Of a stretch of 64,000 bases of DNA, positions 16,291 to 17,578 are shown piece after piece. This stretch comes from Escherichia coli (GTDB lineage: Bacteria > Pseudomonadota > Gammaproteobacteria > Enterobacterales > Enterobacteriaceae): assembly GCF_001677475.2 (NCBI RefSeq), contig NZ_CP015229.1. The stretch is one strand, 5' to 3'. The translations under genes and the position numbers were made by a program. How positions within the stretch are numbered: the first letter of the stretch is position 1; the number at the start of each line of letters is the position of its first letter. The notes under the pieces were generated by a model. The model did no database searches. It was not told where the DNA came from and saw only the letters and a list, made by a program, of their open reading frames with translations.

Positions 16291-16323
16291 GGCGCAACCT
16301 TCACGGGTTGCGCCTGTATTTTT
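16291..16323 (+). terminator. Rho-independent terminator after mdtK
   Basis: GGCGCAACC-ttcacg-GGTTGCGCC followed by TGTATTTTT; overlaps the 3' end of convergent ydhQ. Confidence 0.75.
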
Positions 16324-17578
16324 ACGCAGGCTGGAGCGTTGCGCCAATCCCGTCTTCGTCTGGCTGTAGTTTCAGTGCGTTACACAGAGTTTGCCGACTG
16401 GCATCTGTTATCTCAACGTGTATATCACCGGTAACTTCCCCTTTCACATTGATGAAGTCAGGTGAGATTTCTTTCGCACTGGTTTGCAGGCAAATCGCTC
16501 CCTCTCCGCGCAGGCGTTTCACTTTCAGTTGCACATGCGTTGCCGCACCAGTGATCAGCCACAGTTTTCCGCCATTCAGATTGATGTTACCAACAATGAA
16601 AGTGACGCTGTCACCTTTTACCGTACTGCCGTCGAGAATCAACACACCGCCCTGCTGTACAGTAATCGTTGATTGTTGCAGCTCTGCGCCATAACCAATA
16701 ATCATTGAAGCGCCGTCCAGTAATGCAACACTCCCGGTCAGTTCAACCGGTGCGCGATCTTCCTCTACGACAAAATTTTCGTCCGCGCTGGTGGGTGACA
16801 ACAGGAGCACTGTTCCACCTTGTATTACCGCATTTTCCAGCGTACCGGCATGCACTTCAGCCCGACCACCCACATTCACGGACAGGTTTTGCGTCTTACC
16901 GGAACTGTAGAGCTGAAGGCCATCCGTCCCCAGACGATAAATGGATCCATTCTCAACAATAGTGTCAGAGTCTTCACCACCGAGATTATTCATGGTGCCA
17001 CCAGCAAGCAACGTATCACTGGCTTTCCCGGCCAGCATAAAAACGCCGCCCTGATTAATCTCACAATTGCTGGCTTCCCCACCTGGATACACCAACAATT
17101 CACCTCCTTCATCTACCACGACCGCTGAGGTTGTCCCATTGACCAACAGGCCGCCCTCTTGATCGAGAATAATTTTTTCCGCGCGATGGCCTTCCAGTAC
17201 ACGCAGGTTACCGCCATTTTCCAGTAACAAACCGCAGGCATAACCTTTATCAACGCTGAATTCACCTTCGGGATGGCGGCCATTAACCGTAGCGAGCGTA
17301 GAGAGACTAATTGCGCCTCCCTCAGACTGAACAATATCTGTGGCAATGGCACCGTCACTGACCGATAGCGTGCCATTGTTGCCGTACTGTGTGCATTTGG
17401 CGATCCCACCGGTTGCAACTTTCAACCAACCGGCCCCCGTGACCACGGTATTTTCGGCTCTTGCGCCAGCTTCAACAATTAACTCACCTTCAGTAAGTTG
17501 CGTCGCGCCAATGACCTCGCCGGTCTTAACAATTTGCACATTCCCGTCGCTCATCAAGTTTTTCGCATCAGATCCCAT
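16322..17578 (-). CDS. ydhQ: Autotransporter-passenger-like (adhesin-related) protein YdhQ
   Basis: 418 aa, Gly/Thr/Ser-rich with repeated GG-x-L/V motifs typical of a beta-helix; no obvious signal peptide or beta-barrel domain. Confidence 0.9.
   Translation of the reverse strand: MGSDAKNLMSDGNVQIVKTGEVIGATQLTEGELIVEAGARAENTVVTGAGWLKVATGGIAKCTQYGNNGTLSVSDGAIATDIVQSEGGAISLSTLATVNGRHPEGEFSVDKGYACGLLLENGGNLRVLEGHRAEKIILDQEGGLLVNGTTSAVVVDEGGELLVYPGGEASNCEINQGGVFMLAGKASDTLLAGGTMNNLGGEDSDTIVENGSIYRLGTDGLQLYSSGKTQNLSVNVGGRAEVHAGTLENAVIQGGTVLLLSPTSADENFVVEEDRAPVELTGSVALLDGASMIIGYGAELQQSTITVQQGGVLILDGSTVKGDSVTFIVGNINLNGGKLWLITGAATHVQLKVKRLRGEGAICLQTSAKEISPDFINVKGEVTGDIHVEITDASRQTLCNALKLQPDEDGIGATLQPA

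What the first reader, a model, noticed from the sequence alone, without database searches (positions are those of the whole stretch)
16322..17578. YdhQ looks like an orphan autotransporter passenger: beta-helix-like repeats without signal peptide or beta-barrel
The 418-aa protein is Gly/Thr/Ser/Val-rich with recurring GG-x-L/V-x-V motifs every 20-25 residues, like adhesin passenger domains. The N-terminus (MGSDAKNLMSDGNVQIV…) has no secretion signal and there is no C-terminal translocator domain. It is convergent with mdtK and shares its terminator.
Basis: partly seen in the sequence, partly recalled or inferred. Interest (0 to 1): 0.25.

Follow-up and report, generated by a model that had tools for sequence, protein, structure and literature searches.

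The report
Leaderless barrel-less autotransporter-passenger protein YdhQ
This is the known E. coli gene ydhQ: a beta-helix protein descended from the exported part of a surface adhesin, with no export signal and no membrane pore, apparently cytoplasmic, and kept intact by selection across the genus Escherichia for an unknown purpose.

Summary

There is no signal peptide: a stop codon lies two codons upstream of the ATG. There is no beta-barrel: the protein stops inside the autochaperone domain, 40 bp from mdtK, and shares its hairpin terminator. The repeat period is about 18-19 residues, not 20-25.

It is not a decaying remnant. The 418/419-aa form is intact in six Escherichia lineages, with dN/dS of 0.07-0.13 while dS is about 0.8-2.8. 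It is present in 5425 of 5426 complete E. coli genomes.

Salmonella and Enterobacter have mdtK followed directly by valV-valW. So ydhQ, its terminator and its leader form an Escherichia-specific insertion of about 1.5 kb.

Published work already reports the missing signal peptide and a cytoplasmic location without one. It does not note the missing barrel and treats YdhQ as an autotransporter.

The best reading is a domesticated cytoplasmic beta-helix of unknown function. The gene and its oddity are already known, so interest is low to moderate.

The parts
16322..17578 (-). ydhQ coding sequence, 418 codons plus TAA stop
   Evidence: ORF list. NCBIfam equivalog NF007409 scores 940 bits over residues 1-418. 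Annotated ydhQ / AIDA repeat-containing protein in RefSeq E. coli. The exact protein is on record as ANO89323.1, E. coli.
16619..17539 (-). Beta-helix body (about residues 14-320) built from AIDA-type strand-loop-strand repeats, roughly 18-19 residues per rung
16754..16789 (-). Acidic loop SADENFVVEEDRAP (residues 264-275). It is the only internal low-confidence segment of the model, yet its sequence is almost invariant across the genus.
   Evidence: pLDDT below 50 for residues 264-275. The conservation string shows the loop nearly invariant, including in the 71%-identical orthologue. The equivalent region is variable in true autotransporters.
16370..16594 (-). Partial Pertactin/autochaperone-type domain (residues 329-403), truncated. 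The protein ends at residue 418, where autotransporters continue with the rest of the autochaperone domain, the linker and the barrel.
   Evidence: PF03212 match to profile positions 1-78 of 121, E 7e-6. Alignment A1 is collinear with the autochaperone regions of barrel-bearing autotransporters P0115 and P0142 and stops early.
16290..16315 (.). Bidirectional intrinsic-terminator hairpin shared by mdtK (+) and ydhQ (-). The T-run of the + strand overlaps the ydhQ stop codon.
   Evidence: Terminator scan reports the same stem on both strands, 10-11 pairs with 7 GC. The hairpin is conserved in E. albertii, E. marmotae and the 71% lineage, but differs in sequence from the mdtK terminators of Salmonella and Enterobacter.
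17586..17590 (-). Shine-Dalgarno AAGGA, 7 nt upstream of the ATG. An in-frame TAA lies at 17582-17584.
   Evidence: Direct reading of the sequence.
17579..17795 (-). Escherichia-specific AT-rich leader/promoter region of ydhQ. It is non-coding with stops in all frames and contains several GGA motifs.
   Evidence: Translation of all three frames. Homology with the Salmonella and Enterobacter mdtK-valV spacer begins only at about 17796. CsrA targeting of ydhQ was predicted computationally, according to PMC5389547.
16285..17795 (.). Approximate extent of the Escherichia-specific insertion (terminator + ydhQ + leader) between mdtK and the valV-valW promoter
   Evidence: In Salmonella (L009) and Enterobacter (L010) the mdtK stop is followed after about 150 bp by valV-valW. 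Flank comparison and alignment A2.

Best explanation
ydhQ encodes a soluble, cytoplasmic, acidic right-handed beta-helix. It descends from the C-terminal part of an AIDA-I/Ag43-type (type Va) autotransporter passenger. It lacks everything needed for type V secretion: the Sec signal, the end of the autochaperone domain, the linker and the 12-stranded barrel.

The fragment, with its own ribosome-binding site, leader and hairpin terminator, sits as an insertion of about 1.5 kb between mdtK and the valV-valW tRNA promoter. It has been there in every Escherichia lineage examined and is absent from that slot in Salmonella and Enterobacter. It has been kept under purifying selection since.

Shown here: the architecture, the fold, the absence of secretion parts, the insertion, and the selection.
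Shown by others: the native leaderless protein stays in the cytoplasm and is folding-competent there.
Inferred: it is a domesticated passenger that acts inside the cell. The likely mode is binding through the faces of the beta-helix and/or the conserved acidic loop at residues 264-275, to a protein or ribonucleoprotein partner. It is not a surface adhesin. The partner and the physiological role are not established.
For: Architecture:
- AIDA x5 plus Pertactin profile positions 1-78 of 121; no barrel family.
- Equivalog NF007409 over the full length.
- Alignment A1 is collinear with barrel-bearing autotransporters and ends inside the autochaperone region.

Fold:
- AF2 pLDDT 89.7, pTM 0.87, all-beta three-strand rungs.
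- Foldseek E 1e-8 to 1e-11.

No hidden N-terminus: in-frame TAA two codons upstream, plus a Shine-Dalgarno AAGGA.

Selection:
- dN/dS 0.07-0.13 for all interspecies pairs with finite dS; sliding pN/pS 0.11-0.28 along the whole gene.
- Under neutrality only 0.1% of simulated ORFs stay open at 0.25 substitutions per site, and none at 0.5.
- Present in 5425 of 5426 complete E. coli genomes.
- 418 aa in E. ruysiae, E. marmotae, E. albertii and Escherichia sp. E4742, and 419 aa in a 71%-identical lineage.

Insertion: outgroups have mdtK followed directly by valVW, and a different mdtK terminator.

Cytoplasmic location and expression:
- PMC13101318 reports that the leaderless YdhQ fusion is fluorescent in the cytoplasm and not surface-active.
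- The protein was quantified in a label-free proteome (PMC6561319).
- It copurified with EF-Tu (PMC2672614).
- It is listed among 17 newly detected RNA-binding proteins (bioRxiv 10.1101/2023.07.03.547468).
Against: - No phenotype or partner is established. ydhQ is routinely used as a neutral deletion or integration site, so any function is dispensable in the laboratory.
- Roux et al. 2005, as relayed by PMC9110714, link ydhQ to early adhesion. That would fit a surface role better.
- EF-Tu is a frequent co-purification contaminant.
- A protein with net charge -26 is an unlikely direct RNA binder.
- dN/dS is about five times higher than for the neighbouring gene mdtK (0.02).
- A site-model scan reported some positively selected sites. 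That is more typical of exposed proteins.
Confidence: 0.72

Rival explanations
1. YdhQ is still an adhesin. It reaches the surface by an unconventional route: a translocator encoded elsewhere, outer-membrane vesicles, or release by lysis. It then promotes early adhesion.
For: PMC9110714 states, citing Roux et al. 2005, that ydhQ is required for early stages of adhesion. COG3468 members, including YDHQ, are listed in extracellular-vesicle proteomes. With an added signal peptide, YdhQ fusions gave more extracellular agarase activity than constructs without the scaffold. Some sites were reported under positive selection.
Against: There is no signal peptide, no TPS domain and no barrel. No barrel is found in the 64-kb window. 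The native leaderless fusion is cytoplasmic and gives no surface agarase activity. No known pathway carries a folded, leaderless 43-kDa beta-helix across two membranes. The Roux paper could not be read here.
Confidence: 0.1
2. ydhQ is a non-functional remnant (pseudogene) of a once full-length autotransporter, and is merely still open by chance.
For: In architecture it is an internal fragment lacking both ends of an autotransporter. Deleting it has no noticed effect in laboratory use. One strain carries an ISEcp1 insertion in it.
Against: dN/dS is 0.07-0.13 with dS of 0.8-2.8. The frame is intact at 418/419 codons in six lineages. The neutral simulation gives 0.1% or less survival at 0.25 substitutions per site. 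The gene is present in 5425 of 5426 genomes. The protein has been detected.
Confidence: 0.03
3. The region is kept for a DNA- or RNA-level role, and the protein is incidental. Possible roles are supplying the mdtK terminator, insulating mdtK from the valVW promoter, or a regulatory leader.
For: The hairpin terminator used by mdtK in Escherichia belongs to the inserted segment and replaces the one seen in outgroups. A FlhDC SELEX site lies in the ydhQ-valV spacer.
Against: Synonymous sites are near saturation while amino acids are conserved along the whole 418 codons. That is the signature of selection on the protein. A terminator or insulator would not need a 1.26-kb open frame.
Confidence: 0.03

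Closest known systems
Self-associating autotransporter (SAAT) passengers of E. coli: Ag43 (Flu), AIDA-I, TibA
   Different: YdhQ has no signal peptide, no N-terminal passenger part, no complete autochaperone domain, no linker and no barrel. It is cytoplasmic when expressed natively. It is a chromosomal core gene of the genus rather than a variable, phase-variable or island-borne adhesin.
Full-length AIDA-repeat autotransporters such as P0026 (1534 aa; ESPR + 11 AIDA stretches + AC_1 + Pertactin), the best full-length hit in 1.84 billion representatives
   Same: Best non-orthologous match (E 7.6e-74, 38% identity over matched stretches). It shares the same repeat and the same passenger-end layout.
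   Different: P0026 is about 1100 residues longer, with an extended signal peptide region and a complete autochaperone domain. YdhQ matches several repeat registers of it equally well. So it is a distant paralogue, not a recent parent.
Truncated or disrupted autotransporter pseudogenes (for example P0059, a 422-aa frameshifted fragment with AIDA x3 + Pertactin 1-87)
   Same: Similar length and the same domain content on paper.
   Different: Those are sporadic fragments with frameshifted tails or contig ends. YdhQ is a single orthologous family with a fixed start, a fixed stop and purifying selection.

Membership tests
Classical (type Va) autotransporter | N-terminal Sec-type signal peptide (with or without the ESPR extension) | tested here: not met
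   The N-terminus is acidic and non-hydrophobic, with best Kyte-Doolittle 15-mer 1.11 for windows starting at or before residue 50. There is no ESPR hit. An in-frame stop two codons upstream excludes a longer N-terminus. SignalP 6.0 is negative according to PMC13101318.
Classical (type Va) autotransporter | C-terminal 12-stranded beta-barrel translocator (Pfam PF03797) preceded by a linker | tested here: not met
   There is no PF03797 hit at E<=1. The protein ends inside the autochaperone region. Only 40 bp separate its stop from mdtK. No barrel-like sequence is found in the window.
Classical (type Va) autotransporter | Beta-helical passenger domain | tested here: met
Classical (type Va) autotransporter | Complete autochaperone / Pertactin-type junction domain | tested here: not met
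   PF03212 is matched only over profile positions 1-78 of 121, and PF18883 AC_1 gives no hit. About 40 residues that follow in true autotransporters are absent.
AIDA-I/Ag43/TibA passenger repeat family (Pfam PF16168; TIGR04415) | Tandem strand-loop-strand repeats of about 19 residues scoring above the curated cut-offs | tested here: met
   PF16168 scores 99.6 bits against cut-off 27. TIGR04415 scores 43 bits against cut-off 30.
AIDA-I/Ag43/TibA self-associating adhesins (functional class) | Surface exposure and cell-cell self-association | not testable with these tools
   Published fusion data place leaderless YdhQ in the cytoplasm. Self-association was not examined.
Ag43/Cah (NF033177) and AIDA-I (NF033176) equivalogs | Full-length match above the curated cut-off (1200 bits) | tested here: not met
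   86 and 52 bits, with partial coverage only.
YdhQ orthologue family (NCBIfam NF007409 / PRK09945) | End-to-end match above the cut-off of 830 bits | tested here: met
   940 bits over residues 1-418 of 418.
Type Vb two-partner secretion exoprotein (TpsA) | Signal peptide plus an N-terminal TPS secretion domain, and an adjacent TpsB gene | tested here: not met
   No TPS-domain family appears among the Pfam hits. The neighbours are mdtK and tRNA-Val genes.
Pseudogene / decaying remnant | Relaxed selection (dN/dS near 1), frameshifts or premature stops among orthologues | tested here: not met
   dN/dS 0.07-0.13, with intact frames in six lineages.

The most novel reading that the evidence does not exclude
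YdhQ is an autotransporter passenger that was domesticated for work inside the cell. On this reading it is an acidic beta-helix that associates with the translation or RNA machinery. The supporting hints are EF-Tu co-purification, its recovery in an RNA-interactome capture, and its position next to the valV-valW tRNA genes. The conserved acidic loop at residues 264-275 would be the contact site. This would be the first type V passenger fold shown to have an intracellular function.
Probability: 0.1. Interest if true: 0.6.

Novelty: already known. Interest (0 to 1): 0.25.

Why it matters
YdhQ is repeatedly listed and engineered as an 'autotransporter adhesin', yet it has none of the parts that make an autotransporter secrete.

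Two results change the question. It is a genus-wide, selectively maintained, apparently cytoplasmic beta-helix, and it was inserted next to a tRNA locus. The question is no longer which surface it sticks to, but what a passenger-derived beta-helix does inside the cell.

This also warns against counting it in adhesin or biofilm inventories and in positive-selection narratives. The practical impact is modest. The gene is dispensable in the laboratory and is widely used as a neutral integration site.

Tried and rejected
Its peptide patterns were strain-specific, so it says little about distribution. Distribution rests instead.
- Apparent 'divergent homologues' of 55-74% identity in the representative library (P0070, P0027, P0028) turned out to be error-ridden or frameshifted assemblies of the E. 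coli gene, not distant orthologues.
- A literature search by locus tags (b1664 and others) returned only noise. Roux et al. 2005 is not held, so its ydhQ result is known only second-hand.
- The search for flanking direct or inverted repeats that would mark a mobile element found only short chance-level matches.
- PADLOC gave no defence-system match.
- The Rfam scan of 16000-18200 found nothing inside ydhQ or its leader.
- tblastn for a barrel domain in the window was negative. The rest of the genome could not be searched.
- A hidden N-terminal extension was rejected because of the upstream in-frame stop.

Full report
**1. What is at the coordinates**

The longest ORF on the - strand at 16322-17578 encodes 418 residues beginning MGSDAKNLMSDGNVQIV.
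- It is the E. coli gene ydhQ. NCBIfam equivalog NF007409 matches end to end at 940 bits.
- The same 1.7-kb region is found at 95-99% identity in 5425 of 5426 complete E. coli genomes. There it is annotated 'ydhQ: AIDA repeat-containing protein'.
- The exact protein sequence is on record for E. coli as ANO89323.1.
- The neighbours are cfa, ribC, mdtK (14908-16281, +) and two tRNA-Val(GAC) genes (17887-17963 and 17968-18044, +), followed by ydhR and ydhS.

**2. Check of the observation**

The repeats are real but were slightly mis-described.
- Pfam AIDA matches five stretches (E 1e-28) and TIGR04415 matches two.
- The motif GG-x-[LVIM]-x-[LVIM] occurs six times against 0.68 expected in shuffles.
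- The period is about 18-19 residues, not 20-25. Autocorrelation peaks fall at 17-19, 36 and 54, and the model's rung spacing agrees.
- No comparable repeats remain at the DNA level.
- The protein is Gly/Leu/Val/Ala/Thr-rich and very acidic, with pI 4.45 and net charge -26.

The N-terminus has no signal-peptide character.
- Net charge is -2 over the first 30 residues, and there is no hydrophobic core.
- The N-terminus cannot be longer. A TAA lies in frame two codons upstream, all upstream frames are closed, and an AAGGA Shine-Dalgarno sits 7 nt before the ATG.
- SignalP 6.0 is reported negative in PMC13101318.

There is no translocator.
- There is no PF03797 hit, and the Pertactin match covers only profile positions 1-78 of 121.
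- The stop codon is 40 bp from the mdtK stop.
- The intervening hairpin at 16290-16315 scores as a terminator on both strands. The statement 'convergent with mdtK and shares its terminator' is therefore correct.
- No barrel-like sequence exists anywhere in the 64-kb window.

**3. Fold**

I built an alignment of orthologues plus collinear segments of true autotransporters (A1).
- AlphaFold2 gave pLDDT 89.7 and pTM 0.87: an all-beta solenoid of three-strand rungs, closed by long hairpins at residues 324-365.
- Foldseek gives E 1e-8 to 1e-11 at probability 1.0 for the same proteins.
- Sequence search of the PDB returns the same set.

**4. Relation to full-length autotransporters**

A1 shows that the first residues of YdhQ already align within a repeat unit. 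The C-terminal part (RLRGEGAICLQT...DFINVKGEVTGDIHVEITD...LKLQPDEDGIGATLQPA) is collinear with the autochaperone/Pertactin region of barrel-bearing proteins such as P0115 and P0142. It stops about 40 residues before that domain ends. YdhQ therefore corresponds to an internal piece of a passenger.

In 1.84 billion representative proteins, the only family at or above 50% identity is YdhQ itself.
- Everything else is a long autotransporter at about 30% identity. The best is P0026: 1534 aa with ESPR, 11 AIDA stretches, AC_1 and Pertactin, at 38% identity.
- Hits that looked like intermediate relatives are frameshifted assemblies of the E. coli gene.

**5. Not a decaying remnant**

Orthologues of exactly 418 aa occur in E. 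ruysiae, E. marmotae, E. albertii and Escherichia sp. E4742. A 419-aa, 71%-identical form lies next to an MdtK that is 95% identical to the E. coli protein. For comparison, E. albertii MdtK is 97.2% identical and Salmonella MdtK 92.3%. I infer this form comes from a deep Escherichia lineage.

| Measure | Result |
|---|---|
| Nei-Gojobori dN/dS, interspecies pairs with finite dS | 0.07-0.13 |
| dS over those pairs | 0.8-2.8 |
| dN/dS for mdtK over the same lineages | 0.02 |
| Sliding pN/pS along ydhQ | 0.11-0.28 |
| Neutral simulation: ORFs still open at 0.25 substitutions per site | 0.1% |
| Neutral simulation: ORFs still open at 0.5 substitutions per site | none |

The only disruption seen among the 30 listed hits was an ISEcp1 insertion in one strain.

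**6. Origin of the locus**

In Salmonella enterica (L009) and Enterobacter (L010), the mdtK stop is followed after about 150 bp by valV-valW.
- Homology of the Escherichia spacer to those spacers starts only at about window position 17796, which is the valV promoter region.
- The mdtK terminator hairpin of Escherichia differs in sequence from the one in the outgroups, but is conserved within the genus.
- So the terminator, ydhQ and a 215-bp leader form an Escherichia-specific insertion of about 1.5 kb (about 16285-17795).
- The truncated form was evidently already present in the common ancestor of the lineages sampled.
- No trace of a mobile element remains.
- G+C content (51.5%) is unremarkable.

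**7. What is already published**

- Roux et al. 2005 grouped ydhQ with the Ag43-like adhesin genes. The paper is not held here and is cited through.
- PMC13101318 (2026) calls YdhQ a 'leaderless autotransporter' and reports no SignalP signal. Without a signal peptide, the fusion is fluorescent in the cytoplasm and gives no surface agarase activity. With an added signal peptide the authors infer surface display. That last point is hard to reconcile with the missing barrel and needs leakage controls.
- YdhQ was quantified in a label-free proteome, where it fell 5.5-fold with vanillin.
- It copurified with EF-Tu.
- It is listed among 17 new RNA-binding proteins.
- It has a FlhDC SELEX site in its spacer.
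- It was predicted computationally as a CsrA target.
- It is used as a neutral deletion or integration site.
- It was reported to contain positively selected sites.

**8. Explanation**

Best supported (0.72): YdhQ is a passenger-derived beta-helix that is made and folds in the cytoplasm. It is retained by selection for an intracellular role that probably depends on binding.
- The most distinctive feature is the loop SADENFVVEEDRAP (residues 264-275). It is disordered in the model but nearly invariant across the genus, and it is variable in real autotransporters.
- Architecture, fold, insertion and selection are shown here. Cytoplasmic location is shown by others. The binding role is inferred.

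Rivals:
- Unconventional export and adhesion (0.10).
- Pseudogene (0.03).
- A DNA- or RNA-level role only (0.03).

**9. Verdict**

What this analysis adds:
- It is not decaying.
- It ends inside the autochaperone domain.
- It is an Escherichia-only insertion between mdtK and valVW that brought its own terminator.

Novelty: already known. Interest: about 0.25.

Noticed in passing
window 18006-18168 (- strand): An Rfam match to RF02194 (HPnc0260, 'bacterial antisense RNA') scores 112 bits against a gathering score of 59, with a full-length model match. It overlaps the 3' end of the second tRNA-Val and the start of ydhR on the opposite strand.
   Followed up: no
L009 7835-13362 (Salmonella) and L010 9791-13374 (Enterobacter): Beyond valV-valW, the outgroups carry type III secretion genes (Bac_export, FliP, SepQ, T3SS ATPase) in Salmonella and type VI secretion genes (TssF, TssG, SciN) in Enterobacter. 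Escherichia has ydhR/ydhS there. The valVW locus is a hot spot for acquired DNA on both sides.
   Followed up: partly
window 16285-16320 compared with L009 7363-7400 and L010 7375-7410: The mdtK terminator hairpin in Escherichia (AAGGCGCAACC...GGTTGCGCCTT) is unrelated in sequence to the hairpin after mdtK in Salmonella and Enterobacter (TAGCCGYCG...CGGCTA). In Escherichia, mdtK apparently uses a terminator that arrived with ydhQ.
   Followed up: partly
L012 675-3592 (E. coli AR_0013, NZ_CP032204.1): ydhQ is split by an ISEcp1 (IS1380-family) transposase insertion. This was the only disrupted copy among the 30 listed hits.
   Followed up: partly
window about 17797-17838: The FlhDC genomic-SELEX peak sequence reported for the ydhQ/valV spacer (PMC9962212) maps here. 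It lies at the edge of the conserved valV promoter region, so it may concern valVW rather than ydhQ.
   Followed up: no
window 17579-17700 (- strand leader): The leader contains several GGA motifs: TTCAGGATCGC, GTGGATAAA, and AAAGGAATAA overlapping the Shine-Dalgarno sequence. This fits the computational prediction of ydhQ as a CsrA target cited in PMC5389547.
   Followed up: no
P0070, P0027, P0028 (locus L013 for P0070): Some 'representatives' at 55-74% identity in the 50%-clustered protein library are frameshifted or error-rich assemblies of the E. coli ydhQ region. They mimic divergent homologues.
   Followed up: yes
window 16200-17900 versus E. coli genomes: No complete RefSeq E. coli genome is 99% or more identical to this 1.7-kb stretch (best 98.7%). 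Yet the exact protein is on record for E. coli (42 contigs). The allele belongs to a lineage that is poorly represented among complete genomes.
   Followed up: partly
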